Shown one piece after another: positions 38,533 through 60,176 of a stretch of DNA of 64,000 nt (its first letter is position 1; each line of letters opens with the position of its first letter). The stretch lies in sequence record DRR723986_8739. One strand, given 5' to 3'. A program made the translations under genes and the position numbers. The notes below the pieces were generated by a model. The model was not told the DNA's origin, ran no database searches, and saw only the letters and a list, made by a program, of their open reading frames with translations.

Positions 38533-39684
38533 ATGAATATCCAATCTTATTTTGACCCAGTAGCCGAATACCTTTGGCAGAAGAAGTATCAAAACAATTC
38601 ATTCTTTAAGCAAATCCATTTTTTTGGAGAGGAATTTCCTGATCTCAAAGGCGTACAAATAGCCTTAGTCGGAATCAAAGAAAATCGAGGTTTGGGCAAA
38701 GTGGAAAGTGCGGATAGAGGTAGTAGTGAGATTCGTGAGAAACTTTATGAGCTGAAAAAAGGCTTTGGGGCATATAGAGTAGCTGATTTAGGAGATTTGA
38801 TTTCAGGAGAGAAATTGAGTGATACGTATCAACGGATGCAGGAGGTAGGTGACTACCTGATGAAGCAGCAGATTCTGCCAATTTACTTTGGAGGTTCGCA
38901 CGATTTGGACTACGGGCAGTATTTGTCCTACCAAAAAATGAAAAAGCTGGTCAGCCTGTTGACTGTAGATGCCAAATTAGACATGGAAGAAGATGGTCCA
39001 CTTGCGGATCAACATACACAGGAGATCATTCTTCATCAGCCTAATTTTCTCTTTTCATCTGCCCATCTTGCTTACCAAAGCTTTCTAGTTGATCCATCGC
39101 TGATCAATGTGGTAGAAAAGCTCTATTTTGAGCATGTGCGCTTGGGAGAATTGAGAAGTGAGTTTAAAGAAGTAGAGCCTTTGATTCGAAATGCAGATTT
39201 GTTAAGTTTTGATTTGTGCGCTATTCAGTCCGCTGATGCTCCTGGGGCTGTGAATGCTGAACCTTTCGGACTGACAGCCGAAGAAGCGTGCCAGATTTGC
39301 TGGTTTGCGGGGACAAATGAAAAGTTGAGTTCCATCGGAATATATGGTTACGAACCTTATTATGATGATGCTGCAAATAAGACAGCCAAGGTGGTTTCTG
39401 TAATGATTTGGTATTTCTTAGAAGGGTTTTACTCCCGCAAGGATAGCCTTTCTTTTAAAAGCTCTGATTATACAAAGTATACAGTTTCCTTGGATACGAA
39501 GCCAAATACCTTGGTTTTCTACAAAAGTAAGCGAAGCGGCAAATGGTGGATGGAGATTCCACATAATGAAACAGAGAAATTTGACCGAGTGAGTACAGTT
39601 CCTTGTAGCTATGCGGATTATCAGATGGCTCAAAAAGGAGAGATCCCTGAGCGGTGGATTAATGCTCAGATCAAATTGCTTTGA
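38533..39684 (+). CDS. Arginase/formimidoylglutamase-family protein
   Basis: ADLGD, GGSHDL, DAKLD, SFDL..I...DAPG, PFGL..EEACQI; ATG 38533. Confidence 0.85.
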   Translation: MNIQSYFDPVAEYLWQKKYQNNSFFKQIHFFGEEFPDLKGVQIALVGIKENRGLGKVESADRGSSEIREKLYELKKGFGAYRVADLGDLISGEKLSDTYQRMQEVGDYLMKQQILPIYFGGSHDLDYGQYLSYQKMKKLVSLLTVDAKLDMEEDGPLADQHTQEIILHQPNFLFSSAHLAYQSFLVDPSLINVVEKLYFEHVRLGELRSEFKEVEPLIRNADLLSFDLCAIQSADAPGAVNAEPFGLTAEEACQICWFAGTNEKLSSIGIYGYEPYYDDAANKTAKVVSVMIWYFLEGFYSRKDSLSFKSSDYTKYTVSLDTKPNTLVFYKSKRSGKWWMEIPHNETEKFDRVSTVPCSYADYQMAQKGEIPERWINAQIKLL

Positions 39685-39753
39685 TGAAATTTGAGCATGG
39701 CCAAAGCGTCAAGGGCAGTAAGCTCATTAAAAATGAGAGATTCCATTTGGCCA
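39684..39753 (+). repeat. Intercistronic ~70-nt element, copy 1 (candidate structured RNA)
   Basis: ATGAAATTTGAGCA-N10-GTCA-N21-ATGAGAGATTCCAT-TTGGCCA; matches three other copies. Confidence 0.75.
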
Positions 39754-39766
39754 AAAAAAATATTAT

Positions 39767-40000
39767 ATGCACATGAATACTTATACAAAGCAACAATTGG
39801 CACTTCGAAATGGCCAGGATAAGCCTGAAATTTGGGTTGCTTACCAAGGTGTCATATATGATGTCAGCAGGTCAAGACTTTGGAAGAAAGGCATGCATTA
39901 CGAGCATTGGGCAGGACAGGATTTGACTGAGGAATTGCCAGATGCACCACATACAGAAAAAGTATTTGAGAAATTTGAAGCCATTGGGCAACTAGCATAA
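39767..40000 (+). CDS. Cytochrome b5-like heme/steroid-binding domain protein
   Basis: IWVAYQGVIYDVS.S.LW..G.H..H.AGQDLT.EL.DAPH; start may be 39773. Confidence 0.9.
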   Translation: MHMNTYTKQQLALRNGQDKPEIWVAYQGVIYDVSRSRLWKKGMHYEHWAGQDLTEELPDAPHTEKVFEKFEAIGQLA

Positions 40001-40843
40001 ATGATTTTAATCGCAGATAGTGGTTCCAGCAAGACGGACTGGAGAGTTATTCATTCTGACCATAAAATTAGTCAGCATCGTGGAATAGGGTTTAATCCCT
40101 ATTACCAAACCTCCGAAGAGATGGCTATTCAAATGAAAGATGACTTTCTGGTTAATCTGGAATCTGAAATAAAGGAAATATATTTCTATGGAGCTGGCTG
40201 CTCGAGTCCTGATAGGAAGAATGAAGTTTCATCAGCACTAAAGACAGTTTTTCCAACTGCTAAAATTAGTATTGATCATGATCTTGCGGCAGCTGCTAGG
40301 TCCACATGTGGTCATCAGCCTGGGATAGCTTGTATTTTGGGTACTGGTTCAAATAGCTGTGACTACGATGGTGTTCAAATAGTAGCCTCTCGTCCAGCAC
40401 CAGGCTACATCTTCGGTGATGAAGGAGGAGGAGGCTATGTAGGAAGAAAACTTCTAAAGGATTTTATCAATGATGAAATGCCAACTGAAATCAAAAAAGA
40501 GCTGATAGAAAACTTTCATCTTACAAATACTGTGATTCAGGAACACGTTTATCAAAAGCCATTTCCTAATCGATACATGGCCAGCTTTTGCAGGTTTATC
40601 ACTGAGCATAAATCCAATTCCTATTGCTATATGCTCTATTACAATTCCTTTCAGGATTTCTTCCAACAACATGTGATGAAGTATAAGGATTATACGGAAA
40701 AGCCTGTCAATTTCGTGGGTTCTATAGCCTATTATAATAGTGATATCCTTCGTAAAGCTGCCTCAGATGTCCATATTAATGTAAATTTAATCATTGAAAG
40801 CCCCATAGCTGGCTTGACACTTTACCACCAAGAGAACTTATGA
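40001..40843 (+). CDS. BadF/BadG-type N-acetylglucosamine/MurNAc kinase
   Basis: ILIADSGSSKTDW, G.NPY, FYGAGC, CILGTGSNSC, GYI.GDEG.G; directly upstream of murQ. Confidence 0.9.
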   Translation: MILIADSGSSKTDWRVIHSDHKISQHRGIGFNPYYQTSEEMAIQMKDDFLVNLESEIKEIYFYGAGCSSPDRKNEVSSALKTVFPTAKISIDHDLAAAARSTCGHQPGIACILGTGSNSCDYDGVQIVASRPAPGYIFGDEGGGGYVGRKLLKDFINDEMPTEIKKELIENFHLTNTVIQEHVYQKPFPNRYMASFCRFITEHKSNSYCYMLYYNSFQDFFQQHVMKYKDYTEKPVNFVGSIAYYNSDILRKAASDVHINVNLIIESPIAGLTLYHQENL

Positions 40844-40910
40844 AATCGAGCATGAGTCAGGCGTCACAAATGTTGGTGATTATAACACATGCGAAGATTC
40901 CATGTGGCCT
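40840..40910 (+). repeat. Intercistronic ~70-nt element, copy 2
   Basis: ATGAAATCGAGCA-N10-GTCA-N22-ATGCGAAGATTCCAT-GTGGCCT. Confidence 0.8.
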
Positions 40911-40931
40911 TAAAAGTCAAATTATATACAC

Positions 40932-41744
40932 ATGAAGGTAACTGAAAGTACTTCTCTATATGACAATCTTGAGCAGATGGATGTCATTTCTATTCTTCGA
41001 AATATTAACCGGGAAGATAAAAAAGTAGCCCTTGCCGTTGAGAAAGTTATTCCGAATATTAATGGATTGATCGAGCAGATTGTGCATAGGATGGAGAAAG
41101 GCGGAAGATTGATTTACATAGGTGCTGGGACCAGTGGTAGGCTAGGTGTGTTGGATGCATCAGAGTGTCCGCCAACCTATGGTGTGCCATTCGATATGGT
41201 ATTAGGACTTATTGCGGGAGGAGATAAAGCAATCAGGAAAGCTGTGGAAAATGCGGAAGATGATGCGGATCAGGCTTGGAATGATATTCTGGAATACGGC
41301 TTTAACGAAAATGATACGGTGATCGGAATAGCTGCGTCTGGTACAACTCCTTATGTAATTGGTGGGGTAAAAATAGCACGGGAGAAAGGTCTTTTGACAG
41401 GGAGTATTACTTGTAATCCGGATTCACCGCTTTCAAAAGAAGTAGAGCACCCCATAGAAGCAGTGGTGGGTCCAGAATTTATCACAGGGAGCACACGAAT
41501 GAAATCAGGCACAGCACAGAAGTTGATTCTTAATATGATTTCCACTACTGTGATGATTAAGCTAGGGAAAGTGAAAGGAAATAAAATGGTGGATATGCAG
41601 CTTTCCAATGCTAAGTTGGTACAGCGTGGAACCAAAATGATCATGGAAGCTACAGGATTAGAAGAGGAAACAGCTTACAAACTATTGCTTAGTGAAGGGT
41701 CAGTGAGAAAAGCGACTGAGTATTTTTATAAGAATCTGAACTAG
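40932..41744 (+). CDS. murQ: N-acetylmuramic acid 6-phosphate etherase
   Basis: GAGTSGRLG.LDASECPPT.G, GIAASG.TPYV, GPE..TGSTRMKSGTAQKL.LNM. Confidence 0.97.
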   Translation: MKVTESTSLYDNLEQMDVISILRNINREDKKVALAVEKVIPNINGLIEQIVHRMEKGGRLIYIGAGTSGRLGVLDASECPPTYGVPFDMVLGLIAGGDKAIRKAVENAEDDADQAWNDILEYGFNENDTVIGIAASGTTPYVIGGVKIAREKGLLTGSITCNPDSPLSKEVEHPIEAVVGPEFITGSTRMKSGTAQKLILNMISTTVMIKLGKVKGNKMVDMQLSNAKLVQRGTKMIMEATGLEEETAYKLLLSEGSVRKATEYFYKNLN

Positions 41745-41752
41745 ATTTCAGA

Positions 41753-41828
41753 AAACCTTCCAGGTTTACATGATGGAGTAGTGATGAATTATGGATTCCT
41801 TAGTCTTTTATAGAAACCTGGAAGGTTT
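41753..41828. repeat. REP-like 15-bp perfect inverted repeat pair
   Basis: AAACCTTCCAGGTTT (41753-41767) and AAACCTGGAAGGTTT (41814-41828), 46-nt spacer. Confidence 0.7.
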
Positions 41829-41880
41829 ATGAATTAGGAATATTTTTGAATGCAATGATTAGATATCTCAAAAGAGGCTG

Positions 41881-41888
41881 TATCTTTG
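41881..41888 (+). promoter_or_regulatory. -7 box (TATCTTTG) for the pseudouridine synthase gene
   Basis: TAnnTTTG followed by CA, 72 nt before the ATG. Confidence 0.65.
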
Positions 41889-41960
41889 CAGCCCGATTAA
41901 GGGATTGAAAACCAATCGCTTAATCACACACAATCAATCCAGCAGTGATGCTGCAAATCT

Positions 41961-43289
41961 ATGAGAGATAACAATTCGAAAAAGCCGTTTTTCGGCGAAG
42001 GAAAAAAAGATTCCAACTCTTCCAATTCTGGCCAAAGAGGTGGATACAAAGGGAAATCACAAGGATTCAATAAATCCAAAGATTCTGGATTTTCTAAGTC
42101 TGGCTCAGCAAAGAAGCCCTTCAGCACTAGTGAAGATGACTTTTCTGATTTCAATAAAAAGCCAAGAACAAATAAAAAATCGGGGTTTAAAACCTTAGGC
42201 GAGAAGAAATTTGGTTCTAAATCGAATTTTGGACCTAAGAAAGACCAAGGTGCTGACTTTACTGAAAAGAAAGATTTTGGTGCTGGCAAGAAGCAATTTT
42301 TCGCCAAAAAAGAAGAAGCCGATCGGCCAAAGCCATACAATAGAGATTCTAAAGGAGGTAAGACGCAATCTTCTGAAAAACCAGAAGGACTTATCTACAA
42401 AGGTCGTGGAAAGGACCAAAAGCCAGTTTTTGCAGCTGGAAGACCGACCTACAAGTCTGATAAGAAAGAGAACAAGGGTTTCGGTAAGAAGCGTTTTGTA
42501 GATCAGGATACCAACGTAGAGCGTCCGGATTACAACTTTGACTCTCTTCCTCAGAAAAAGAAGAAGTTGGAGAATGAGGACAACCTTATTCGCCTAAATA
42601 AATACATCGCAAATTCTGGAATTTGCAGTAGGAGAGAAGCAGATTCTTTGATTAGCCAAGGTCTCGTTACACTGAACGGTGAGGTATGTACTGAGCTAGG
42701 TCGTAAAGTGAAGAAAACTGACCGAGTAGTTTATCAAGGAAGAAAGATCAATCCTGAGAAGCCTACTTATGTGTTGCTGAATAAGCCAAAGGATTTTATC
42801 ACTACTACGGATGATCCTATGGATCGGAAGACAGTAATGAACCTAGTAGGAAATGCCTGTGAGGAGCGTATTTTTCCTGTTGGTAGATTGGATAGAAATA
42901 CGACTGGGCTTTTGTTATTCACCAATGACGGTGAATTGGCTGCTAAGCTTTCTCATCCTTCAAACGAAATCAAGAAGATCTATCAAGTGACTTTGGACAA
43001 GCCACTTACTAAGAAGGACGAAGAAGCTATCATTGAAGGCTTGACTTTAGAAGATGGCAAAGTTGAAGTAGATGATATGCAAGTTTTATCCTTGGATCGT
43101 ACGATTCTAGGTTTGGAGATTCACGTTGGTAGAAATAGAATAGTCCGTAGGATCTTTGCCCACTTGGGCTATGAAGTTACTGCGCTGGATCGAGTAGTCT
43201 ATGCAGGCTTGGATAAAAAAGATTTGAAGCGTGGACATTATCGATTCCTTACAGAGCAAGAAGTGATTCGATTAAAGTTCTTCATATAA
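41961..43289 (+). CDS. RsuA/RluB/RluF-family rRNA pseudouridine synthase with ~200-aa disordered N-terminus
   Basis: S4 domain RLNKYIA.SG.CSRREAD, LLNKPK, PVGRLDR.TTGLLL.TNDG, GRNR.VRR. Confidence 0.95.
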   Translation: MRDNNSKKPFFGEGKKDSNSSNSGQRGGYKGKSQGFNKSKDSGFSKSGSAKKPFSTSEDDFSDFNKKPRTNKKSGFKTLGEKKFGSKSNFGPKKDQGADFTEKKDFGAGKKQFFAKKEEADRPKPYNRDSKGGKTQSSEKPEGLIYKGRGKDQKPVFAAGRPTYKSDKKENKGFGKKRFVDQDTNVERPDYNFDSLPQKKKKLENEDNLIRLNKYIANSGICSRREADSLISQGLVTLNGEVCTELGRKVKKTDRVVYQGRKINPEKPTYVLLNKPKDFITTTDDPMDRKTVMNLVGNACEERIFPVGRLDRNTTGLLLFTNDGELAAKLSHPSNEIKKIYQVTLDKPLTKKDEEAIIEGLTLEDGKVEVDDMQVLSLDRTILGLEIHVGRNRIVRRIFAHLGYEVTALDRVVYAGLDKKDLKRGHYRFLTEQEVIRLKFFI

Positions 43290-43291
43290 GT

Positions 43292-43322
43292 AAAAAAAGC
43301 TCCCGATTTGGGAGCTTTTTTA
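43292..43322. terminator. Bidirectional intrinsic terminator
   Basis: AAAAAAGCTCCC-gattt-GGGAGCTTTTTT between convergent genes. Confidence 0.88.
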
Positions 43323-43419
43323 TTTCAATTTACACGTAATAAGTGTAAAGAACCATGCTGAGAGCGCGGTTTTTCTGTTTCAGTTAGCTTGCTTCGCCAG
43401 AAGCTGAACAAAGCGATTT

Positions 43420-43725
43420 TTACACAAATCCTTTTAGCCCTTGCTTCAAATCCCTTTTAGTAATCAGTCCTCCCTTTCTCCATAAGATTTTCCCTTTTTT
43501 GAAAAGTATGTAATTAGGGATGGAGCGCACTGCGAACTGCTGAGCTAGTTGTGGGCTTTTATCAATATTGATTTTCAGCAATTTAATTTTTCCTCCCAAT
43601 TCTGTTAATACTTCGTGTATGATAGGATCCATTGTCTGGCAGGGTCCGCACCAGTCTGCATAGAAATCTACGAGGACTGCATCCTGACTCTTGCTAATGA
43701 TATCTTTTGGATTCTTTTTTGGCAT
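43420..43725 (-). CDS. Thioredoxin family protein
   Basis: VLVDFYADWCGPC, VRSIP. Confidence 0.93.
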   Translation of the reverse strand: MPKKNPKDIISKSQDAVLVDFYADWCGPCQTMDPIIHEVLTELGGKIKLLKINIDKSPQLAQQFAVRSIPNYILFKKGKILWRKGGLITKRDLKQGLKGFV

Positions 43726-43738
43726 TGCTGGAAAACAA

Positions 43739-43774
43739 AGAAGCCGCTAATTCGAGATCGAGTTAGCGGCTTCT
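43739..43774 (-). terminator. Hairpin/terminator after the skp genes
   Basis: AGAAGCCGCTAATTCGA-ga-TCGAGTTAGCGGCTTCT with a U-rich tail on the minus strand. Confidence 0.75.
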
Positions 43775-43790
43775 AGTTGCTAGTGGTTAA

Positions 43791-44333
43791 TTAATTGGCT
43801 GCTGGAGCAGCTGGCATTTCAAGACCTAATTTCGTCAAAACTAGCTCAGTGAATTTATCTTCTTCTTTAGTATAAAGAAGGATAGGCGCTTGTCCTGCAG
43901 ATTCAGCGAAAATATGGGTGTAGTTATTTTCAGCTGCTACTGCGTTAATAGCATTTACGACTTTAGTTTGTACTGGACCTAGAAGTTCACCTAATTTTCT
44001 CTGGTAGCTGATCTGAGAGTCTGACTCCATTTTCTGCAAACTATTTTGAAGAGCAGTCAGCTCATTTACTTTTGCAGCTCTAGCTTCTTCAGTCATGGAC
44101 TGTGATGCTTGCTCAAATGCCTGAACTTGGCGCTGGAAATCTTCACCTTTTAATTGCATTGTGGTTTGCAGCTGAGTTTCGTAGTCTTTGATATCAGCAG
44201 CAATTTGCTCCATCTCTGGCATTAAATCCATGATAAATTCTACGTTGGTATAACCAATCTTTACTTCTTGAGCCTGAGCTGCGAATCCTACGCAAAGCAA
44301 TGCTACTGCGGAAAGGATAACTTTTACTTTCAT
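43791..44333 (-). CDS. skp: OmpH/Skp periplasmic chaperone
   Basis: Signal peptide, KIGY.N...I...MPE, coiled coil, AI..VA.EN.Y..IF. Confidence 0.9.
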   Translation of the reverse strand: MKVKVILSAVALLCVGFAAQAQEVKIGYTNVEFIMDLMPEMEQIAADIKDYETQLQTTMQLKGEDFQRQVQAFEQASQSMTEEARAAKVNELTALQNSLQKMESDSQISYQRKLGELLGPVQTKVVNAINAVAAENNYTHIFAESAGQAPILLYTKEEDKFTELVLTKLGLEMPAAPAAN

Positions 44334-44355
44334 ATGAATTTGTTTTGTTTTTTAA

Positions 44356-44423
44356 TGGTCACATGGAATCTCGCATCGTTTAGAATCAGTAAGTTATTGA
44401 CTCTTAAGTTTGCTCGATTTCAT
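44356..44423 (-). repeat. Intercistronic ~70-nt element, copy 3
   Basis: Minus strand reads ATGAAATCGAGCA-N9-GTCA-N21-ATGCGAGATTCCAT-GTGACCA. Confidence 0.8.
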
Positions 44424-44440
44424 CATTTCTGTGTTTCTTT

Positions 44441-44971
44441 TTATTTGTTGTCTTCTATTCCCAATTCCTCCAATACGAATTCCGAATAATCATGTCTAGG
44501 ATCTGTCCAGATAATAGCCGATGGTTCGGCCGCTTTATCAAATAACATTCCTAGGTTGTTTCTTCGCGTTACTCGCTCTATAGCATCATAAATTTTGGAT
44601 TGAAGTGGTTGCATTAATTCCGCTTGTTTTTGGAAGTACTGACCATCAATTCCGAAAATTCTGCTATTGAATTCCTGGGATTCTTTTTGTTTCAACTTTA
44701 TGTCTTCCAGCCGTTGCTGGTACATTTCTTCTGTGAGAAGAACCTCTTCTGCTTTAAGCTGCACAGAAAGATCTTTGATCTCTTTATCCAAATTTTGTGC
44801 CTCTTTCTTCCATTCAGCGCTTATGTTTTCTAGCTCTTGCTGGATAACCTTGTAGTCCGGATGCTTATTTAGAATATACTCCGTATCAATGTATCCAAAC
44901 TTTTGTGCTACCAAAGGGGCTGCTTGGAGCAGTAGAAGCAGCAAAAATACAATTTTCAGTGGTTTATTCAT
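44441..44971 (-). CDS. skp: OmpH/Skp periplasmic chaperone
   Basis: AQKFGYIDTEYIL, coiled coil, FG..G.......L..P.Q.KI..AI; directly downstream of bamA. Confidence 0.9.
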   Translation of the reverse strand: MNKPLKIVFLLLLLLQAAPLVAQKFGYIDTEYILNKHPDYKVIQQELENISAEWKKEAQNLDKEIKDLSVQLKAEEVLLTEEMYQQRLEDIKLKQKESQEFNSRIFGIDGQYFQKQAELMQPLQSKIYDAIERVTRRNNLGMLFDKAAEPSAIIWTDPRHDYSEFVLEELGIEDNK

Positions 44972-45062
44972 GAGGTTGGGGAATTTACAAGGACCTATTT
45001 TATTAATTTCTTAGCACGTCAATTTTTGCATAAATTAACTATTCCCCTCCCTAAATCCATAC

Positions 45063-47759: not shown

Positions 47760-47766
47760 TAATTAC

Positions 47767-48504: not shown

Positions 48505-48587
48505 TCCAGCCGTCTCCGGTTCCTTACTTTTTTGGAGGTACAAAAATGCCATTTCTTTTCCAAATATTAGCCCTAGGGCTCGATTTA

Positions 48588-49379: not shown

Positions 49380-49441
49380 CTCAGTATTTAGCGGGTTAAT
49401 AATTGTTAAGCTCAAATTGACTTGGTCTTAAAGACATTGAT

Positions 49442-50317: not shown

Positions 50318-50320
50318 GTC

Positions 50321-50986: not shown

Positions 50987-51078
50987 AAAAGAAAGATAGG
51001 GAATGAATTTAGATTATGAAACGCCTGAACCCCTATTCTTGTTCCTTTTTAGCGAAATTAGCGATGGTTTCTTTAGTA

Positions 51079-52278: not shown

Positions 52279-52281
52279 CCC

Positions 52282-53259: not shown

Positions 53260-53334
53260 ATGTTTAATGTATTATAGTTCTATTTCTAATTTATCTTTAA
53301 AATTAAATATCTTTAATCTCAATTTACACGCTGT

Positions 53335-54102: not shown

Positions 54103-54108
54103 CATGGT

Positions 54109-54116
54109 TATCTTTG
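54109..54116 (+). promoter_or_regulatory. -7 box (TATCTTTG) for serS
   Basis: TAnnTTTG match 25 nt before the ATG. Confidence 0.6.
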
Positions 54117-54141
54117 AGACTTCAATTTCAACTATGTTAAA

Positions 54142-55416
54142 ATGCTTTTAGTTAATCAGATTCGTGAAAACTTCGCCGGCGTACTTGCCGGTCTACAAAA
54201 GAGAAATTTCCCAAATGCAGAGGCTGTCTTAAATCAGGCAGTGGCTCTTGATGAATTGAGAAAATCCACTCAGTCGGAGCGTGATCAGATTCAAAGTGAA
54301 TCAAATGCTATTTCAAAAGAAATCGGAACGCTTATGCGTGAGGGAAGAGCCGAAGAAGCAGTCAAGATTAAAGAGAAAACGGCTGAGCTGAAAATTCAAG
54401 TGAAGGATCTTGAAGAGCAAAATTCGAAAGCAGAAGCAGATTTAATAGCCTTACTTTATACTATCCCTAATGTGCCACATATTTCTGTTCCTGCAGGGAA
54501 ATCTGCTGAGGACAATGAAGTAGTCTTGGAGAATGGCGCTATTCCTACGCTGTATGAAGGCAAGCTTCCTCACTGGGACTTGATCAAAAAATACGATATC
54601 ATCGATTTTGATCTGGGCAATAAAATTTCTGGTGCTGGATTTCCAGTATATAAAGGAAAAGGGGCTAGGCTGCAGCGAGCTTTGATTAATTTCTTCTTGG
54701 ATGAAGCACTCGAGCAAGGATATTACGAAATCCAACCGCCAATTTTGGTAAATGAAGACTCAGGCTATGGAACTGGTCAACTTCCAGATAAGGAGGGGCA
54801 AATGTATTATGCAGGTGCTGATAACTTGTATTTGATTCCAACTGGTGAGGTTCCAATCACCAATATTTACCGTGATGTGATTCTTTCTGAAAGTGATCTG
54901 CCTATCAAAAACGTGGGACATTCTCCATGTTTCCGTAGAGAAGCAGGAAGCTGGGGCGCTCATGTGAGAGGATTGAATAGACTTCACCAATTTGACAAAG
55001 TGGAGATCGTGCAGATAACCCATCCTGATAAATCCTATGAGACATTAGAAAGCATGAGCACTTATGTGCAAGGACTATTGCAAAAGCTGGAATTACCTTA
55101 CCGTGTTTTGAGACTTTGTGGAGGTGATATGGGCTTTACGTCTGCGCTGACTTATGATATGGAGGTATTCTCTGCGGCACAGGAAAGATGGTTGGAAGTT
55201 AGTTCTGTTTCTAACTTCGAAACCTATCAGTCGAATCGCCTGAAATTGAGATTCCGTGGTGAAGATAAAAAAATCCAATTAGCTCATTCACTGAATGGGA
55301 GTGCATTGGCATTGCCTAGAATAGTAGCTTCCATCTTGGAAAACAATCAAACTCCAGAAGGTATCATGATGCCAAAGGTGCTTCAGCCTTATTTAGGATT
55401 TGATAGGATCTCCTAA
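54142..55416 (+). CDS. serS: Serine--tRNA ligase
   Basis: N-terminal coiled coil, GTGQLP, LIPT.EVP, FRREAGS.G...RGL.R.HQF.KVE, LNGSALA.PR. Confidence 0.98.
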   Translation: MLLVNQIRENFAGVLAGLQKRNFPNAEAVLNQAVALDELRKSTQSERDQIQSESNAISKEIGTLMREGRAEEAVKIKEKTAELKIQVKDLEEQNSKAEADLIALLYTIPNVPHISVPAGKSAEDNEVVLENGAIPTLYEGKLPHWDLIKKYDIIDFDLGNKISGAGFPVYKGKGARLQRALINFFLDEALEQGYYEIQPPILVNEDSGYGTGQLPDKEGQMYYAGADNLYLIPTGEVPITNIYRDVILSESDLPIKNVGHSPCFRREAGSWGAHVRGLNRLHQFDKVEIVQITHPDKSYETLESMSTYVQGLLQKLELPYRVLRLCGGDMGFTSALTYDMEVFSAAQERWLEVSSVSNFETYQSNRLKLRFRGEDKKIQLAHSLNGSALALPRIVASILENNQTPEGIMMPKVLQPYLGFDRIS

Positions 55417-55434
55417 TGGATAGACCCTACTTAT

Positions 55435-55465
55435 AGCGTGAAGATTACTTCTTCACGCTTTTTTT
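55435..55465 (+). terminator. Intrinsic terminator after serS
   Basis: AGCGTGAAGA-ttact-TCTTCACGCT plus T tract. Confidence 0.85.
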
Positions 55466-55493
55466 GTTACCCTCTTAAGCCTTGATTCTTTCC

Positions 55494-55877
55494 TTACCCT
55501 ACATTTTCCTCAAAAAGGCATTCCAAAGTTTTCTCCAAGTCCTCGGCAGTTCCAGAATGGGGCCGTGAAGTTTGGATAATGGAGCTTCTTACAGCAGTTA
55601 GCCATCTAAACCTAGAGGCTAAATCCATGGATGCAATATTACCCCCTGCTTCTGAACCAGTGCATATTTTTTCAAATGAGGCCAAATTAAGTGCAATCAT
55701 TTCAACATCAGCATGAGGATCCAGCATCAATAATTTTTGAGTGTTCAAATGTATCTTACAGGCAAGGAAATTTCTTTTCCAATGGCAGATCACTACACCA
55801 ACATTGATGAATTCCTCCCTTTCCACCCGTGGCACTACACGGATGATCGCGTATTCATATAAGTGCTGTTCTTGCAT
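55494..55877 (-). CDS. DUF3037 domain-containing protein
   Basis: YEYAIIRVVPRVEREEFINVGV, RF.WL.A.RS.IIQTS..H.G. Confidence 0.9.
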   Translation of the reverse strand: MQEQHLYEYAIIRVVPRVEREEFINVGVVICHWKRNFLACKIHLNTQKLLMLDPHADVEMIALNLASFEKICTGSEAGGNIASMDLASRFRWLTAVRSSIIQTSRPHSGTAEDLEKTLECLFEENVG

Positions 55878-56649
55878 CTTGAGCTTCTTTTATGAATTGA
55901 TCAGAATAGGAAAGGCGAAGATTCAAAAAGTCTTGGTAAACCTTTCTCACTTCATCTGCATGCTCAGAATCGCCACCCGCTAGTAGCCATTCTTCTGGAA
56001 TAGTATTTACAATTGCGCTGATTTTCTCTGGGGTCAAAACCTTTTTAAAAGTTGCATTTACAGTTTCTAGTTCTGAAGCCGCTGGAAGCAACACATGATT
56101 TTTAATTATAGGAAAAGGGCTTTCCGCATTTTTCTTCCAATTCACCCATGCATGTTGAAATAAGAAAGAAGCCCCATGATCGATTAACCAAAGCTCTCGA
56201 TTCCAAATTAGCATGTTTGTGTTTCTAAAAGTCCGATCCACATTCGTGATGAACATGTCCAGCCAGACTATTTGCGAAGCTAGAAGAGGATCTGTATTCA
56301 TGGCCACGGGATCGTAGTTGATCGCTCCAGATAAGAAATGCAGGGCTAGGTTAAGGCCTTGGCTACCTTTGAGCAGGTCTTGAATTTCTTCGTCTCCCTC
56401 AGATCTACCAAATGCTGGATCAAGGTTGGCGAAGACTAATTCCGGGACTTTCAAACTTAAAGCTCTGGCAATTTCCCCGCCCAGTAGTTCGGCGATGAGT
56501 GCTTTTTCTCGCTGACCAGCTCCTCGGAATTTGAGTACATATTTAAACCCATCATCTGCATCAGCAAGAGCAGGCAGTGATCCTCCTTCTCGTAGGGGGA
56601 GAATATACCGGGTTACATTTACGTTGCGTAAACTTAATTTTTGATCCAT
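55855..56649 (-). CDS. HipA-like kinase (HipA_2 type)
   Basis: PLREGGSLP, YVLKFRGAGQ, L.AEL, N.DRT..N.N.L, LWLIDHGA; overlaps the DUF3037 start; ATG 56649 preferred. Confidence 0.9.
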   Translation of the reverse strand: MDQKLSLRNVNVTRYILPLREGGSLPALADADDGFKYVLKFRGAGQREKALIAELLGGEIARALSLKVPELVFANLDPAFGRSEGDEEIQDLLKGSQGLNLALHFLSGAINYDPVAMNTDPLLASQIVWLDMFITNVDRTFRNTNMLIWNRELWLIDHGASFLFQHAWVNWKKNAESPFPIIKNHVLLPAASELETVNATFKKVLTPEKISAIVNTIPEEWLLAGGDSEHADEVRKVYQDFLNLRLSYSDQFIKEAQDARTALI

Positions 56650-56698
56650 TTGATACTTATAATGCAAGCCTTGATTGTCCAAAGTTAAAGAATCTGAT

Positions 56699-57580
56699 TT
56701 AGATCAGTTCTTCTACATGCTTTTGGATGTTTGAAGATAATTTCCCCATAGGTAGGTCATTGGCATCGGTGCCAAAAGGCTCTTCGATTTCTTCGGCTAT
56801 CAATTCTAAACTGGCTAATACGTAAAATATAAAAGTCACGATCGGGGCAGCATAATATCCTAGTGAAAATACATATCCAAGAGGCAAAGTGACTACATAA
56901 GCCAAAATGAATTTCTTAATAAAAGAGCTGTAAGAGTAGGGAATTGGTGTGTTTTTGATTCGTTCACATGCACCGCATATATCTGTGAATGACATTAACT
57001 CCTGGTTCAAAACGATCAATTGATCGCCTGTAATTATTTTGGCTTTATACAGATCATTCACCTTAGCAAACATCAATTTAGCGACTTGGTTGGGAACATG
57101 TTTTTCTGGATCGATCTCGGGTTTTATATCCTCATCTTCCTTGTCATCCAGCATATAAAGTGTCACTTTGGATTGCAAATGTTCCTTTAGGGCGAAAGCA
57201 TAAATGGGAATTGTTCTCCTGAAAAATTTTCTGGATTCTTCGTCAGAATTATCAAGCATTCCGGCCAGCTTTAGGGCTAGATTTCGGCTATTGTTTACCA
57301 ATTGCCCCCATAGTTTCCTGCCTTCCCACCATCTGTCATATGCAGTATTCGTTCGGAAGACCAATAACATGGAAATCACAAAGCTCAGTAAACTGTGCAT
57401 GATTGGGATATTTTTCACCCAACTGTTTTCGCTAATCTTTAAATAGTCAATTTCCAGCCAAGCCATTCCTATGGAATAAGCAAAAATCAGGAGCATAAAA
57501 GGGCCTAACTTGACTAAGGTGTCAGACTTTTGAATAAAAAATAAAACTTTAAACCATTCCTTTGGATTATATCCTTTCAT
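56699..57580 (-). CDS. Bestrophin family (YneE-like) ion channel
   Basis: LLVFRTNTAYDRWWEGRK.WG.L.N.SR, G.CERIKNTPIP.SY, EIE.PFG.D.NDLP. Confidence 0.95.
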   Translation of the reverse strand: MKGYNPKEWFKVLFFIQKSDTLVKLGPFMLLIFAYSIGMAWLEIDYLKISENSWVKNIPIMHSLLSFVISMLLVFRTNTAYDRWWEGRKLWGQLVNNSRNLALKLAGMLDNSDEESRKFFRRTIPIYAFALKEHLQSKVTLYMLDDKEDEDIKPEIDPEKHVPNQVAKLMFAKVNDLYKAKIITGDQLIVLNQELMSFTDICGACERIKNTPIPYSYSSFIKKFILAYVVTLPLGYVFSLGYYAAPIVTFIFYVLASLELIAEEIEEPFGTDANDLPMGKLSSNIQKHVEELI

Positions 57581-57656
57581 GTTGTTAGCAAAAGTGTTTT
57601 GAATGAGTTAGAAGAAAAGTGACAATTTACTGAGGCCTATTACAGCACGTGATAGT

Positions 57657-58262
57657 CTATTTGTTGGTAAGGAGATGCTGATGTATTTTTAAAACCTGTG
57701 GGATGAGCAACTTATTGTCTGTGTTCTTGATCACAAAATCAGCTAGTTCATTTTTCTGCTCATCTGGAAGTTGCTGGTTGATTATCTGGTTTACCTGCTC
57801 TTCCTTACGAAATGGATCACGCATCAATATTCTGGCAATACGGACTTTCAAGGGAGAACTAACATTGATGACTTTATCTAGCGTTTTTTCACCTCCAGTT
57901 TCAAAGATTAATGCAGCTTCTTTTAAGACATAAGGGGCATGTTGCTGCTCTGTCCAAGCAAAAAAATCTTTTCCAACGGCCGGATGTACCAGCGCATTAA
58001 TCATTTTAACCTTCTCCGGGTCTGAAAAGACTTCATTAGCTAAGAAAGTTCTATTTAAGCTACCGTCAGCGGAGAAGGATTCTGGCCCAAAGGCATTGGT
58101 AAGCTGCCTCTTCAATTCCTCATCATTTCCCATAAGCCACTTTGCTCGATCATCAGCTGAATAAATGGGAATTCCTAGTATAGAAAAAATCTTTGCAACA
58201 GTAGATTTTCCTGAGCCAATTCCACCAGTTATACCGACTAAGATGGGAGAGGTGTTACTCAT
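57657..58262 (-). CDS. coaE: Dephospho-CoA kinase
   Basis: GITGGIGSGKST, AD..AK, HP.V, E.ALIFE. Confidence 0.96.
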   Translation of the reverse strand: MSNTSPILVGITGGIGSGKSTVAKIFSILGIPIYSADDRAKWLMGNDEELKRQLTNAFGPESFSADGSLNRTFLANEVFSDPEKVKMINALVHPAVGKDFFAWTEQQHAPYVLKEAALIFETGGEKTLDKVINVSSPLKVRIARILMRDPFRKEEQVNQIINQQLPDEQKNELADFVIKNTDNKLLIPQVLKIHQHLLTNK

Positions 58263-59217
58263 ACTTTAATTTTAAGATTTCTGGTTGAGCTACAACTTGT
58301 TCGAGGTAGTCAGGCATTGGTTTTACCTGTACGGTGATAGTACTGTCCTCTTTATTCCTTTTGTAATAATCTAAAATTGCTTCGAATTCTAAGTCTTTTA
58401 ATTCGGATGATTTACGTTCATCCACCAAATATGAAATCATGATTACGACTTCTTCATTTTGTAAAGAAACCGACTTTGGGAAGTTTAATTTTTTAATTTT
58501 TAGCCGCTTATTTCCTTCAAGGAATTCAACAACGTCAAATTTAACCTGGATATTTTCGACTTCAAGCGTCACATGATTTCCAAGATTTTCAGGGATAGTA
58601 AGCGCTATTTCTTTATCAATTGACTTGTTAATACGGTTTTCCTCCAGATTAACTGGAAAACTTTTTAAACTGTCTAAAAGTGAGCTAGGCCCTTTGAGTG
58701 TAATGGTGCTTGGATTAAAAGTAACTGGTCCGATTGCTCTATAGTTTTTACTCATAGAAAAACCTGCCGAATCCAAGACAGGATTGAGTTTGACTGTTTT
58801 GATTTTATCAATTTTAAATGTTAATGAATCCTGAAGGACAGAATTAAGCTGAGTTGGAGAAAGGAACTCCCCTAGAGACCTTTTAAGGTCGGCGGTAAGA
58901 ATGTAATTCTTTGAGGCTGGATTTGATAGCTCTACAGGATAAGAGTCGCTGTTAAAGTTGAAATATTTCCTTAGTAGGTCCCAGCCGTTTCCGGATATTT
59001 CTATTTCCAAAGTTTTTGGGAGACTGGCGACAGCTACATACTGATCTTTGTCGTAAACTAATTCAATTGGAAAATCGACAATAGTATTATAATCGTCCTT
59101 ATTGAGGGCGTTTAAAATCCAAAAAGTGGTAGCTGCTGCGATGCAGAGGACTACCACTTTCAGATTAGAGAGTTTTTTTGGAGAAATCCTTTTTGAGGAT
59201 TTTTTAGTTTCCGGCAA
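58255..59217 (-). CDS. YbbR/CdaR-like domain protein
   Basis: N-terminal TM (FW.LNAL.K.Y), G.GW.LL, P..I...GP motifs; conserved position between yajC and coaE. Confidence 0.75.
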   Translation of the reverse strand: MPETKKSSKRISPKKLSNLKVVVLCIAAATTFWILNALNKDDYNTIVDFPIELVYDKDQYVAVASLPKTLEIEISGNGWDLLRKYFNFNSDSYPVELSNPASKNYILTADLKRSLGEFLSPTQLNSVLQDSLTFKIDKIKTVKLNPVLDSAGFSMSKNYRAIGPVTFNPSTITLKGPSSLLDSLKSFPVNLEENRINKSIDKEIALTIPENLGNHVTLEVENIQVKFDVVEFLEGNKRLKIKKLNFPKSVSLQNEEVVIMISYLVDERKSSELKDLEFEAILDYYKRNKEDSTITVQVKPMPDYLEQVVAQPEILKLKYE

Positions 59218-59225
59218 AATTCAAT

Positions 59226-59543
59226 TTATTTTTTTGTTTCAGTCTTCTTTGAGAAATCTAGAGAAATAGCAGATTTTTCAACTTTGACCTTCATGCCTCT
59301 GTCAAGTTCAAGGATAACTGTGTCGCCTTCAACTGAGCTTACTTTTCCGTGAAGTCCGCCGATTGTTACTACTTCGTCGCCCTTTTTGATTTCTTCAATG
59401 AATTTTTTGCTTTCCTTTTGTTTTTTTTGCTGTGGTCTGATCATGAAGAAATACATAATCAGGATAATAGAACCGAAAAGGAAAACTTGTCCTAAAATTC
59501 CGCTACCACCTGCGGCAGCCTGGGCTAGTACTGTAGAAATCAT
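59226..59543 (-). CDS. yajC: Preprotein translocase subunit YajC
   Basis: YFFMIRPQQKKQK, KGDEVVTIGGLHG. Confidence 0.97.
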   Translation of the reverse strand: MISTVLAQAAAGGSGILGQVFLFGSIILIMYFFMIRPQQKKQKESKKFIEEIKKGDEVVTIGGLHGKVSSVEGDTVILELDRGMKVKVEKSAISLDFSKKTETKK

Positions 59544-59545
59544 AA

Positions 59546-60088
59546 TTATCGTTTAACTGGGCCTACTGGAGTAGCTGCGCCTGCAATTTTTGGTGTAACT
59601 GTACCTTTCAATCTTAATCTGGTTACAGCCGGGTTAGTGTTTGCTTGAATACTTACTGTAGGAGCTTGTGCGCCTGATTTAGAAGTTGAGTTGAAAACTA
59701 CCTTCACAAATCCTTCATCTCCTGGCTTAACAGGTGCCTTAGACCAATCTGGGCTAGTACATCCGCATGAAGCAGTGATGTTAGAAATAACCAATGGAGC
59801 TTGTCCATTATTTGTGAATTTAAAGATATGTTCGACGACTTGACCTTCATTAATAGCGCCAAAATCATACTCCTCTTCTGGAAATGCAAAAGCACCTAGA
59901 GTAGATGGATCAGCAACAGTCGCTGCTTGCGCATTCACTGGAGTAACTGTAGGGCTACTTGTTTCTAATTGAGCGATTTTTTGTTCAAGTGCAGCAATCT
60001 TTGCGTCTTGATCGCTTTTTGGGTTACATGAAGTTCCCAAAGCAAGCATGACGGAAAATACCGCCATATTCATTACGTTGATTTTCAT
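59546..60088 (-). CDS. DUF1573 domain lipoprotein
   Basis: Lipobox; YDFG.I.EG, F.FTN.G..PL.I......SCGCT.P. Confidence 0.9.
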   Translation of the reverse strand: MKINVMNMAVFSVMLALGTSCNPKSDQDAKIAALEQKIAQLETSSPTVTPVNAQAATVADPSTLGAFAFPEEEYDFGAINEGQVVEHIFKFTNNGQAPLVISNITASCGCTSPDWSKAPVKPGDEGFVKVVFNSTSKSGAQAPTVSIQANTNPAVTRLRLKGTVTPKIAGAATPVGPVKR

Positions 60089-60107
60089 CTGTTTATGTTT
60101 TTTTTAG

Positions 60108-60176
60108 TGGTCAAATGGAATCGTGCATTTCAGTTTTCTTTCTTCAATAGAAATGACACTGTACGCTCGATTTCAT
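60108..60176 (-). repeat. Intercistronic ~70-nt element, copy 4
   Basis: Minus strand reads ATGAAATCGAGCG-N6-GTCA-N25-ATGCACGATTCCAT-TTGACCA. Confidence 0.8.

What the first reader, a model, noticed from the sequence alone, without database searches (positions are those of the whole stretch)
39684..60176. Four-copy ~70-nt intercistronic element with conserved stem and pseudoknot: candidate novel cis-acting RNA
Seen: four intergenic copies on the sense strand. c1 39684-39753 (+): ATGAAATTTGAGCA-N10-GTCA-N21-ATGAGAGATTCCAT-TTGGCCA. c2 40840-40910 (+): ATGAAATCGAGCA-N10-GTCA-N22-ATGCGAAGATTCCAT-GTGGCCT. c3 44356-44423 (-): ATGAAATCGAGCA-N9-GTCA-N21-ATGCGAGATTCCAT-GTGACCA. c4 60108-60176 (-): ATGAAATCGAGCG-N6-GTCA-N25-ATGCACGATTCCAT-TTGACCA. 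Lengths are 68-71 nt although the spacers are unrelated. All four lie between co-oriented genes, start 0-17 nt after the upstream stop and end about 19-22 nt (A-rich) before the downstream ATG (c1 measured to ATG 39773). The outer blocks pair (AUGAAAUC..GC with GC..GAUUCCAU, looser in c1) with the same A-C mismatch every time and a purine-rich internal loop. The invariant loop GUCA can pair with the 3' UG(A/G)C, U-A swapping with U-G; c1 GUCAA/UUGGC versus c2 GUCAC/GUGGC is a compensatory change. Inference: fixed mismatches, strand bias and fixed distance to start codons fit a folded RNA better than a DNA MITE or terminator. Downstream genes are unrelated (cytochrome b5, murQ, skp, DUF1573), which argues against a single-metabolite riboswitch. 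It suggests a general device: an internal translation-initiation or reinitiation element in a phylum that largely lacks Shine-Dalgarno usage, an mRNA processing or stabilising element, or a ribozyme. I do not recognise it as a named family but cannot exclude an Rfam entry.
Basis: partly seen in the sequence, partly recalled or inferred. Interest (0 to 1): 0.92.

Follow-up and report, generated by a model that had tools for sequence, protein, structure and literature searches.

The report
Start-codon-homing mobile repeat in Cyclobacteriaceae
The four look-alike intergenic stretches are copies of a roughly 90-base mobile repeat that lands on the first bases of genes and brings its own leader and start codon, and it probably derives from an RNA-guided jumping gene rather than being a regulatory RNA of the host.

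Summary
The four copies are real and lie at the stated places. They are not a local four-copy RNA. They belong to an interspersed family with 30 to more than 100 copies per genome, seen in many Cyclobacteriaceae and in none of 388 other Bacteroidota genomes searched.

The true unit is about 90 nt. It runs from ATGAAAT to a second ATGAA, and that second ATGAA is the start codon of the downstream gene.

Congeners have empty sites at two of the four window loci. Sites turn over between species, and tandem arrays occur. So the unit is inserted DNA.

A 14-bp hairpin and an inner hairpin covary. The strongest covariation joins the base after CCAT to the base before the gene's ATG.

Stem mismatches show no G-U over A-C excess, and pairing decays in degenerate copies. 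This argues against host-level RNA selection.

IS110-family insertion sequences in five genomes (DEDD recombinase) have the same boundaries. In four the left end opens with ATGAAAT followed by CATGA, and in two it matches the unit's first ~48 nt. Three lie in tandem with units.

Best reading: a non-autonomous IS110/IS1111-type derivative homing to ATGAAA gene starts. Its activity and the recombinase link are inferred, not shown.

The parts
39684..39777 (+). Copy c1, whole unit from the relic ATG to the ATGAA of the Cyt-b5 gene. It is degenerate. Left arm 39684-39698, right arm 39733-39746, N=T at 39747, N'=C at 39772 (unpaired).
   Evidence: 68.5 bits. The stop TGA of the upstream arginase-family gene (39682-39684) overlaps the relic ATG.
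40840..40936 (+). Copy c2, whole unit. Left arm 40840-40853, right arm 40889-40903, N=G at 40904 paired with N'=C at 40931. The start codon of the SIS/MurQ-like gene is at 40932-40934.
   Evidence: 90 bits. The upstream ORF's stop (40841-40843) overlaps the relic ATG as ATGA. Congeners without the unit have the same ATGA overlap directly at the murQ-like start.
44329..44423 (-). Copy c3, whole unit. Left arm 44423-44410, right arm 44376-44363, N=G at 44362 with N'=T at 44334 (G-U). The start codon of the second OmpH/Skp gene is at 44333-44331.
   Evidence: (83 bits)
60084..60176 (-). Copy c4, whole unit. Left arm 60176-60163, right arm 60128-60115, N=T at 60114 with N'=G at 60089 (U-G). The start codon of the DUF1573 gene is at 60088-60086.
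   Evidence: (75.3 bits). The site is empty in 18 of 30 congener loci and filled by a different copy in two.
39773..40000 (+). Cyt-b5 domain gene whose start codon is the last part of c1.
   Evidence: PF00173, E 1.9e-9
40932..41744 (+). SIS-domain (MurQ-like) gene whose start codon is the last part of c2.
43791..44333 (-). OmpH/Skp gene whose start codon is the last part of c3.
59546..60088 (-). DUF1573 gene whose start codon is the last part of c4.

Best explanation
The four copies belong to a family of ~90-nt non-autonomous mobile elements confined, as far as searched, to Cyclobacteriaceae.

Anatomy of a unit. It opens with ATGAAAT, and its first 14 nt form the left arm of a hairpin. An inner hairpin and a conserved loop follow. 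Then comes the right arm, ending in GATTCCAT, then one variable base N, then TGRCC, then an A-rich ~25-nt tail ending CA-N', and finally ATGAA.

What insertion does. The unit inserts in one orientation at ATGAA(A), most often the first bases of a gene. The old start codon becomes the foot of the hairpin. The gene is then read from the unit's terminal ATG, behind the unit's own Shine-Dalgarno-less leader.

Junction pairing. The internal stretch GATTCCAT-N-TG is complementary to the sequence made when the unit's right end is joined to its left end (CA-N'-ATGAAATC). So the N/N' covariation acts across the junction of a circular or tandem form.

Likely origin. The unit is probably an internally deleted derivative of an IS110-family (IS1111-like) insertion sequence. 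That family is mobilised by a DEDD recombinase and a guide RNA (this applies Durrant 2024; it is inferred, not shown here).

After insertion the hairpin decays roughly neutrally, while ATGAA is kept because it is now the gene's start.

Shown: the anatomy, the copy numbers, the empty sites, the turnover, the covariation, and that the IS shares boundaries and its left end with the units. Inferred: the mobilising enzyme, the circular intermediate and the guide role.
For: Abundance and range.
- 70 model hits in G001 and 83 in G157.
- A loose pattern matches 28 of 41 congeners, with up to 116 copies.
- It matches 28 of 121 genus representatives of the family. By my reading of the matched sequences, 17 of these are bona fide.
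- It matches 4 of 401 Bacteroidota genomes, all four in the window's genus, and 0 of 388 outside the family.
- Named hosts include Algoriphagus, Lunatibacter, Lunatimonas and Cyclobacterium.

Fusion to start codons.
- The terminal ATG opens an ORF of at least 70 codons in 64 of 69 unique G001 copies. Two of the other five are alignment offsets onto real starts.
- A crude count in the window predicts about 39% if any tolerated ATGAA were hit.

Insertion.
- Empty sites at the murQ-like locus and the DUF1573 locus.
- A different copy sits at the same site in G168 and G161, while G134 and G166 are empty.
- Only 18 of 69 G001 sites are occupied among the 71 G157 copies fetched.
- Tandem arrays contain unlike units.

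Structure.
- N/N' pair: GC 49, CG 37, AU 36 in 149 sequences, the top mutual-information pair.
- 91.6% of cells paired against 84.3% in shuffles, and 116 double-change cells against 43.
- Subfamilies swap the inner left and right arms compensatorily.
- Pairing is highest in the best copies and decays. G-U is about equal to A-C.

Link to the IS.
- Units abut a gene with PF01548+PF02371 domains in L374 and L375.
- IS copies in five genomes run from ATGAAAT to ...TA-n-CA-N' followed by ATGAA, or ATA-G in L388.
- In two of them the left end aligns with unit type C over ~48 nt.
- In G046 the IS sits between two units.
- A ~110-nt piece in L182 joins the IS-type left end to an IS-type right end.
- The right end is longer than the left (~197 vs ~96 nt) and holds a conserved stem with covarying pairs and two AUGAAA motifs. 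Bridge RNA in the right end is the IS1111-group layout in Durrant 2024 (passages).
Against: - The recombinase does not track the units. Homologues with at least 45% identity are in only 3 of 41 congeners, and a 35% homologue in one more. Homologues with at least 60% identity are in 3 of 121 genus representatives.
- The richest genomes lack it: G134 with 116 pattern matches, G166 with 112, G055 with 139. G001 has no PF01548 hit at all. G046 and G077 have the IS but no unit by the exact pattern.
- Most IS copies seen are broken or of unclear intactness. G554 needs a frameshift, and G029, G077 and G162 each have an in-frame stop. G046 shows no internal stop, but its N- and C-terminal parts lie in different frames.
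- The recombinase gene itself starts with ATGAA in 3 of the 4 IS copies whose start was read (G554, G029, G046; ATGGA in G077). Its unit-like leader could therefore be just another insertion.
- The right inverted repeat is recognisable in only one IS copy, G029.
- No circle junction, transcript or transposition event was observed.
- Orthologous copies that are clearly descended from one insertion keep the arms and tail better than the middle. This could mean in-situ function, although ascertainment and conversion or replacement can also explain it.
Confidence: 0.65

Rival explanations
1. The unit is a mobile, start-codon-homing repeat, but it is unrelated to the IS110-family element. On this view the recombinase gene is merely one more ATGAA-starting gene that units have targeted. 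The units would then be moved by something else: an unseen enzyme, a RAYT-like Y1 transposase acting on single-stranded hairpins with guide/cleavage-site pairing as in IS200/IS605, or recombination.
For: - The phyletic mismatch between recombinase and units.
- The tnp gene starts with ATGAA.
- Y1_Tnp genes are present in 101 of 121 genomes of the family, including all unit-rich ones.
- The unit has one hairpin and an internal stretch complementary to both junctions, which resembles guide logic.
Against: - The unit-like left end travels with the IS in two genera. The same ATGAAAT ... CA-N'|ATGAA boundaries recur in four genera and five genomes.
- In G046 the whole IS occupies the slot of a unit within an array.
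- A deletion derivative joins the IS left and right ends.
- Five Y1 genes in G001 and two in G055 are flanked by other GC-rich hairpins, not by this unit.
Confidence: 0.2
2. The unit is a host cis-regulatory RNA. It would be a bistable leader in which GAUUCCAU pairs either with the 5' AUGAAAUC (start codon free) or with the gene's own CA-N'-AUGAAA (start codon sequestered). That would give a global translational switch, such as a thermometer or a factor-binding device, for some 70 genes. It would have been spread by duplication and kept by selection.
For: - The N/N' covariation involves the start-codon helix.
- In ViennaRNA folds of 132 copies the gene AUG is paired with probability 0.79. The AUG:CAU helix scores 0.54 against 0.31 for the outer stem, so the two conformers are close in energy.
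- The unit is in the sense orientation at gene starts.
- The arms and tail are better kept than the middle in orthologous pairs.
Against: - Housekeeping loci are empty in congeners, and sites turn over quickly.
- G-U is about equal to A-C in the stems, 83 vs 70.
- N/N' pairing falls to 0.62 in degenerate copies while ATGAA stays at 0.95-1.0.
- The conserved loop is lost in the window's own copies.
- Of 15 copies not fused to a long ORF, 7 are followed by a gene on the opposite strand.
- The downstream genes are unrelated.
Confidence: 0.12
3. The unit is a self-cleaving ribozyme or RNase processing element that separates cistrons.
For: - Tandem units and a conserved unpaired core occur in young copies.
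- The unit sits between overlapping operon genes.
Against: - There is no hit to any Rfam ribozyme or other family. This holds for the window at gathering scores, for the window copies at E up to 10, and for canonical copies and a five-unit array, where the best hits lie far below gathering scores.
- The 'core' is not kept in older copies.
Confidence: 0.03

Closest known systems
IS110-family insertion sequences, IS1111 group, with bridge/seek guide RNAs (Durrant et al. 2024, Nature, PMC11208160; passages read)
   Same: - A DEDD recombinase with PF01548+PF02371 domains lies next to units.
- There are no terminal inverted repeats at the very ends.
- Insertion is specific for sequence and orientation, around a short core.
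- Sub-terminal inverted repeats of 7-17 bp are described for IS1111; the unit's arms are 14 bp.
- The right end is longer than the left and holds a conserved structured region.
- Covariation runs across the right-end/left-end junction.
   Different: - The abundant form here is a ~90-nt piece without a recombinase.
- The target is the start of genes (ATGAAA) rather than REP or attC-like repeats, and the element supplies the gene's leader and start codon.
- No bridge RNA has been shown. Rfam gave no hit on the IS.
- The recombinase is missing from most unit-rich genomes.
ISPpu9 of Pseudomonas putida and its stand-alone ssr9 modules (Pares-Guillen et al. 2025, PMC12288879; abstract read)
   Same: It is an IS110-family element. 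Its non-coding module also exists alone at other sites, and it is proposed to spread selfishly using the IS recombinase through its own minicircles.
   Different: - ISPpu9 has three stand-alone copies, against tens to more than 100 here.
- It targets REP sequences, not start codons.
- It has no sequence relation to this unit, as far as I could judge without its sequence.
Neisseria REP2 and Borrelia IR repeats (described in Delihas 2011, PMC3184786; passages read)
   Same: These are repeats placed immediately upstream of ORFs. They carry internal stem-loops, a ribosome-binding region and the ATG initiation codon.
   Different: - REP2 is said to carry a promoter and a Shine-Dalgarno site. By eye, this unit has neither a -33/-7 Bacteroidota promoter motif nor a Shine-Dalgarno site.
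- REP2 has about two dozen copies (recalled, not from the passages read).
- Mobility and empty sites are shown here.
- No sequence comparison was possible.
Classical MITEs (for example the Correia elements of Neisseria) and REP/RAYT systems
   Same: They are short and non-autonomous, have many copies, are transcribed with neighbouring genes, form hairpins, and show filled and empty sites among relatives.
   Different: - The inverted repeat is not terminal on the right side, because a ~32-nt tail lies outside it.
- Orientation and target are strict.
- The Y1 (RAYT-like) genes checked are flanked by other hairpins.
RNA thermometers and translational riboswitches that sequester the initiation region
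   Same: A predicted helix includes the start codon, and a competing helix exists.
   Different: - There is no conserved ligand pocket.
- There is no orthologous conservation and no excess of G-U over A-C.

Membership tests
Any Rfam 15 family (including the hammerhead, twister, pistol and hatchet ribozymes, and leaders) | A score at or above the family's gathering threshold | tested here: not met
   The whole window gave 0 hits at gathering scores. At E up to 10, no listed match overlaps the copies in 39000-45000. On a canonical copy and a five-unit array the best matches are 9-19 bits against gathering scores of 37-382. The IS itself gave 0 hits at E up to 1.
IS110 family (IS1111 group) derivative | A DEDD recombinase with PF01548 and PF02371 domains encoded between the ends of the full-length element | tested here: met
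   L374 and L382 ORFs: PF01548 99.6 and 89.2 bits, PF02371 62.2 and 48.9 bits. The copies seen carry a frameshift or stop, or are of unclear intactness.
IS110 family (IS1111 group) derivative | The short unit shares both ends with the full-length element | tested here: met
   The left ends of two IS copies align with type C units over ~48 nt, and all four aligned left ends share the opening ATGAAAT and CATGA. The right ends finish ...TA-n-CA-N' before ATGAA, like the unit tail. The right arm is clear in only one of the IS copies.
IS110 family (IS1111 group) derivative | Sequence- and orientation-specific insertion around a short core, without terminal inverted repeats | tested here: met
   ATGAA brackets the units and the IS. 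A follows at +6 in 90% of 145 fused starts against 61% of 341 background ATGAA starts. All 69 G001 copies are sense to the gene they abut, except one with no gene.
IS110 family (IS1111 group) derivative | A guide (bridge/seek) RNA whose loops pair with the target and the donor | tested here: inconclusive
   The right end has a conserved stem with 2 covarying pairs among only four sequences, and two AUGAAA motifs. One motif equals 10 nt of the right flank in G029. There is no transcript or binding data.
IS110 family (IS1111 group) derivative | A circular intermediate, and mobilisation of the unit by the recombinase | not testable with these tools
   No RNA or DNA read evidence is available (one search listed no run). 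The phyletic co-occurrence is poor.
Classical MITE | Terminal inverted repeats at both extremities, plus a target-site duplication | tested here: not met
   A direct repeat ATGAA is present. However, the right inverted repeat lies ~32 nt inside the right end.
REP/RAYT or IS200/IS605-derived element | The cognate hairpins flank a Y1 (PF01797) transposase gene | tested here: not met
   Five Y1 loci in G001 and two in G055 are flanked by other GC-rich hairpins and no unit. PF01797 is present in 101 of 121 genomes whatever their unit content. One G001 Y1 locus was not looked at.
Riboswitch or RNA thermometer (host cis-regulator) | Structure kept by selection at orthologous sites, with G-U tolerated over A-C | tested here: not met
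   Orthologous sites are empty in congeners. G-U 83 vs A-C 70. N/N' pairing decays.
Integron attC site | R''/R' core sites (GTTRRRY), with an integrase and cassette array nearby | tested here: not met
   No such core is present in the sequences read. The neighbouring genes are housekeeping genes. No integrase search was run.
Leader peptide or small ORF | A conserved reading frame through the unit | tested here: not met
   ORFs from the first ATG are mostly 2 to 45 codons long. In three copies the frame stays open through the unit into the gene. Conserved blocks fall in different frames.

The most novel reading that the evidence does not exclude
The 90-nt unit is a self-guided minimal element. 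Its own transcript or folded strand carries, in GAUUCCAU-N-UG, the guide that recognises both its joined ends and the ATGAAA of gene starts. An IS110-type recombinase supplied in trans can therefore move it. By replacing native leaders with a portable, Shine-Dalgarno-less, partly start-codon-masking leader at 1-3% of genes, it has become a genome-wide modulator of translation initiation in a phylum that lacks Shine-Dalgarno pairing.
Probability: 0.2. Interest if true: 0.85.

Novelty: new variant of a known kind. Interest (0 to 1): 0.62.

Why it matters
If the reading holds, three things follow.

1. It is a natural case of an RNA-guided (IS110/IS1111-type) element whose target is the first codons of genes. 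It would have a very abundant recombinase-less derivative, showing how such systems give rise to MITE-like swarms.
2. It shows a mobile element that does not disrupt the gene it hits, because it brings a new leader and start codon. This is relevant to how Bacteroidota initiate translation without Shine-Dalgarno pairing.
3. It matters for annotation. The relic ATG can extend ORFs by about 30 codons; the frame runs through the unit in 3 of 69 G001 copies. The repeats also break draft assemblies.

It removes the case for a new class of host regulatory RNA or ribozyme at these sites.

Tried and rejected
- **Rfam.** Five scans gave no family.
- **Small ORF through the unit.** The frames are not conserved.
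Not supported.
- **RAYT/Y1 link.** PF01797 is ubiquitous in the family, and the loci checked are flanked by other hairpins.
- **Full-length copy by orphan half-sites.** I searched all fetched loci for unpaired half-sites. The orphans were variants with mismatches, copies with nested hairpin inserts, or truncated relics. The one candidate, L153 at 4776, is followed by genes on the opposite strand.
- **Phage and plasmid collections.** blastn with a canonical copy gave no match.
- **RNA sequencing runs for window 39000-45000.** No RNA holder was listed, so no reads were laid.
- **Earlier findings of this scan.** Nothing was found by place, sequence or words.
- **Literature.** Four searches for the motif strings, for Cyclobacteriaceae repeats and for start-codon MITEs found no description of this element. 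A MITE survey (PMC11602168, find mode) does not mention Algoriphagus or Cyclobacteriaceae in its main text.
- **Limits of the literature check.** Supplements are closed and ISfinder is not available here. A catalogued IS with this target may therefore exist in the supplementary tables of Durrant 2024 or in ISfinder.
- **Whole-genome file.** None is held for the window.

Full report
**1. The observation**

The 3' block occurs exactly four times in the window. A covariance model (R1) finds these four at 68.5-90 bits and nothing else above 13.2 bits. The model was seeded with these four copies among 26 sequences, so their own scores are partly by construction.

The gene context is as described:
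- c1 and c2 begin on the stop codon of the upstream gene (TGATG and ATGA).
- c3 and c4 begin 17 and 5 nt after it.
- The downstream genes are Cyt-b5, a SIS/MurQ-like gene, OmpH and DUF1573.

**2. The real unit**

I aligned the four copies with 22 copies from related genomes. Conservation does not stop at TGRCC. It runs through an A-rich tail to CA-N'-ATGAA, and that last ATG is the start codon of the downstream gene. The unit therefore begins with ATGAAAT and ends with ATGAA. In G001 it is 86-93 nt long in 57 of 69 copies. That length equals the 88-92-nt period of the tandem arrays seen in other genomes.

**3. Abundance and range**

No assembly is held for the window itself. The nearest genome, G001, has 70 model hits, and a congener, G157, has 83.

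| Sample searched with a loose two-block pattern | Genomes with a match |
|---|---|
| Congeners | 28 of 41, up to 116 copies |
| One genome per genus of the family | 28 of 121 |
| Bacteroidota | 4 of 401, all in the window's genus; 0 of 388 outside the family |

Of the 28 matches among the genus representatives, I set aside 11 single matches as chance, because they lack the rest of the motif. The reversed-pattern control matched once in all. One of the 121 genomes, G112, is unpublished, and nothing here depends on it. Named records with the unit are Algoriphagus (many species), Lunatibacter, Lunatimonas, Cyclobacterium, Pararhodonellum, Pleomorphovibrio, Negadavirga, Anditalea and Aquiflexum, plus a few metagenome bins with other labels.

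**4. Fusion to start codons**

In 64 of 69 unique G001 copies the terminal ATG opens an ORF of at least 70 codons. The other five break down as follows:
- two are alignment offsets onto real ATGAA starts;
- two lie 17 and 79 nt upstream of a gene on the same strand;
- one is a two-unit relic with no gene.

The upstream neighbour is co-oriented in 58 copies and divergent in 11. So the unit is a leader element, not specifically an intercistronic one.

In a multi-species set biased towards well-kept copies, 64 of 100 hits open long ORFs. A further 24 open short ones, and at least 7 of those are simply followed by another unit. Fifteen short-ORF copies were examined. Five are followed by a same-strand gene, seven by an opposite-strand gene, and three have no long ORF called downstream. 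So insertion is not absolutely tied to gene starts.

A crude count in the window gives 14 genes starting with ATGAA against 22 intergenic non-start ATGAA. If any tolerated ATGAA were hit, about 39% of copies would sit at starts.

Fused starts have A at position +6 in 90% of 145 cases, against 61% of 341 other ATGAA starts. The 5' flank of solitary units looks like ordinary sequence upstream of a start, with a little more C at -3.

**5. It is inserted DNA**

*The murQ-like gene, 19 congener loci:*
- 13 have the upstream stop overlapping the start (ATGA) and no unit;
- G001 has one unit;
- G134 and G123 have two units in tandem;
- two loci have other spacers;
- one locus is truncated.

*The DUF1573 gene, 30 congener loci:*
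- 18 are empty;
- 4 are filled;
- 7 have other spacers;
- 1 is uninformative.

At the DUF1573 locus the site is filled in G001 and G157, empty in G134 and G166, and filled by a clearly different copy in G168 and G161. That needs at least two insertions, or precise loss.

Only 18 of 69 G001 sites are occupied among the 71 G157 copies I fetched out of 83 hits. At several shared sites the middle of the unit is unrelated between the two species, and a fresh G157 subfamily sits where G001 has a relic. Arrays mix unlike units, for example four similar units plus one of another subfamily before a lipoprotein gene. This fits repeated insertion into a target that the unit itself recreates.

**6. Structure**

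RNAalifold, mutual information and pair counts agree on three elements:
- a 14-bp outer stem;
- an inner 4-bp hairpin;
- a pair between N (after CCAT) and N' (before the gene's ATG).

The outer stem has a fixed A-C mismatch (142 of 149) and tandem G-A pairs. The N/N' pair reads GC 49, CG 37, AU 36 among 149 sequences. Subfamilies replace the inner part of the outer stem compensatorily.

Read as one strand, the right arm plus N-TG is complementary to CA-N' followed by the left arm. So the inverted repeat is continuous (17 bp) only when the unit's right end is joined to its left end, as in a circle or a tandem array.

As RNA, the same stretch can instead pair with the gene's own CA-N'-AUGAAA. 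Folding 132 copies predicts the gene's AUG paired with probability 0.79, with the two conformers close in energy.

**7. Is the structure kept by the host?**

Three observations argue against it:
- Apart from the fixed A-C, G-U and A-C mismatches in stems are about equal, 83 and 70. In functional RNAs G-U is usually favoured (general knowledge).
- N/N' pairing is 0.91-1.00 in the best third of copies and 0.62 in the worst third, while ATGAA stays at 0.95-1.0. Score rank is only a proxy for age, and the score includes the pair.
- The conserved loop of young copies is gone in the window's copies.

One observation points the other way. In the few orthologous pairs that clearly descend from one insertion, the arms and tail changed less than the middle. 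Ascertainment through the model, and replacement or conversion between copies, can also produce that pattern.

**8. A full-length relative**

I searched five unit-rich genomes for the IS110-family DEDD domain and found it in four; G001 has none. At two of six fetched loci, units abut the gene.

Reading these loci and homologues from other genera gave the following:
- The elements read end to end are about 1.5 kb (1,513-1,538 nt). All five copies begin with ATGAAAT and end ...TA-n-CA-N' (ATA-G in L388), followed by ATGAA.
- The first ~48 nt of two copies match subfamily-C units, and all four left ends aligned share ATGAAAT and CATGA.
- In G046 the element sits between two units, like a long unit.
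- L182 has a ~110-nt piece that joins the IS-type left end to an IS-type right end.

The ORFs carry PF01548 and PF02371. The right non-coding end (~197 nt) is longer than the left (~96 nt). It holds a conserved stem with covarying pairs and two AUGAAA motifs, one of which equals 10 nt of the right flank in G029.

From the passages of Durrant et al. 2024 that I read, the IS110 family:
- lacks terminal inverted repeats;
- inserts sequence-specifically around a short core, through a circular form;
- uses a guide RNA that covaries with donor and target.

The IS1111 group has 7-17-bp sub-terminal inverted repeats, short left ends and long right ends that hold the RNA. The ISPpu9 paper (abstract) reports a non-coding module of an IS110-family element spreading alone through its own minicircles.

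**9. What weakens the link**

- Close homologues of this recombinase are rare. Homologues of at least 60% identity are in 3 of 121 genus representatives, and of at least 45% identity in 3 of 41 congeners.
- They are missing from the genomes richest in units.
- Every copy seen is either interrupted by a stop or frameshift or of unclear intactness.
- The recombinase gene starts with ATGAA in three of the four IS copies whose start was read, so its unit-like leader might be one more insertion.

I therefore hold two claims at different strengths:
- The unit is a mobile, ATGAA-homing repeat fused to start codons. This is firm.
- The unit is an IS110/IS1111-type derivative. This is the best lead, not a demonstration.

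**10. Comparison with known systems, and novelty**

Functionally, the closest described repeats are Neisseria REP2 and the Borrelia IR sequences, which carry a ribosome-binding region and an ATG upstream of ORFs (Delihas 2011, passages).

Mechanistically, the closest are the IS110/IS1111 elements and the ISPpu9 ssr9 modules.

I found no description of this family in four literature searches or in Rfam. Supplements and ISfinder were not available to me.

I rate it a new variant of a known kind. It is of moderate to high interest for mobile-element and Bacteroidota translation research.

Noticed in passing
L099, L102, L105, L252, L253, L186 and others (related genomes); none in the window: Two kinds of 20-30-nt GC-rich hairpins are nested inside units at fixed points. 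One, GTCCCGA..TCGGGAC(AGGC), sits within the CCAT of the right arm. The other, CCTGCC..GGCAGACAGGC, sits just after the left arm. Similar hairpins flank Y1_Tnp (RAYT-like) genes. This looks like a REP-like family with its own target preference.
   Followed up: partly
window 40854-40888 versus L053/L004 (G001): The middle of c2 differs from its G001 orthologue at about 11 of 45 positions. Meanwhile 30 nt upstream, both arms, the tail and 50 nt downstream are identical. This suggests replacement or conversion bounded by the arms rather than ordinary drift.
   Followed up: partly
L374 1456-2699, L375 1456-2700, L381, L382: The N- and C-terminal parts of the IS110-family recombinase lie in different frames in three copies (G554, G046, G077) at about the same point. 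G029 and G077 each have an in-frame TAA. These could be decay, sequencing error or a programmed shift.
   Followed up: no
L382 1250-1412 and 2926-3054 (G046): A longer relative of the unit (~160 nt) flanks the IS in a genome where the exact unit pattern found nothing. It has arms ATGAAATAGC/GCTATTCCAT and the same tail. The family is therefore wider than my pattern counts show.
   Followed up: no
L282, L283, L285, L286 (DUF1573 locus in four congeners): A ~100-nt spacer with no recognisable hairpin ends in a unit-like tail (...AAAACCAATTAATACAC before ATGAAA). It may be a very old or different element at the same site.
   Followed up: no
L389 (G154, recombinase 52% identical): A related IS has AUAAAAC and AGAAAAAAC at the two right-end positions where the others have AUGAAA motifs. 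That is what one would expect if those motifs are guides for a different target.
   Followed up: no
window 43266-43381, both strands: Several weak Rfam matches (Phe_leader, sau-19, rimP and others, all far below gathering scores) pile up between the convergent ORFs that end at 43289 and 43420. The region is probably a bidirectional terminator-like hairpin.
   Followed up: no
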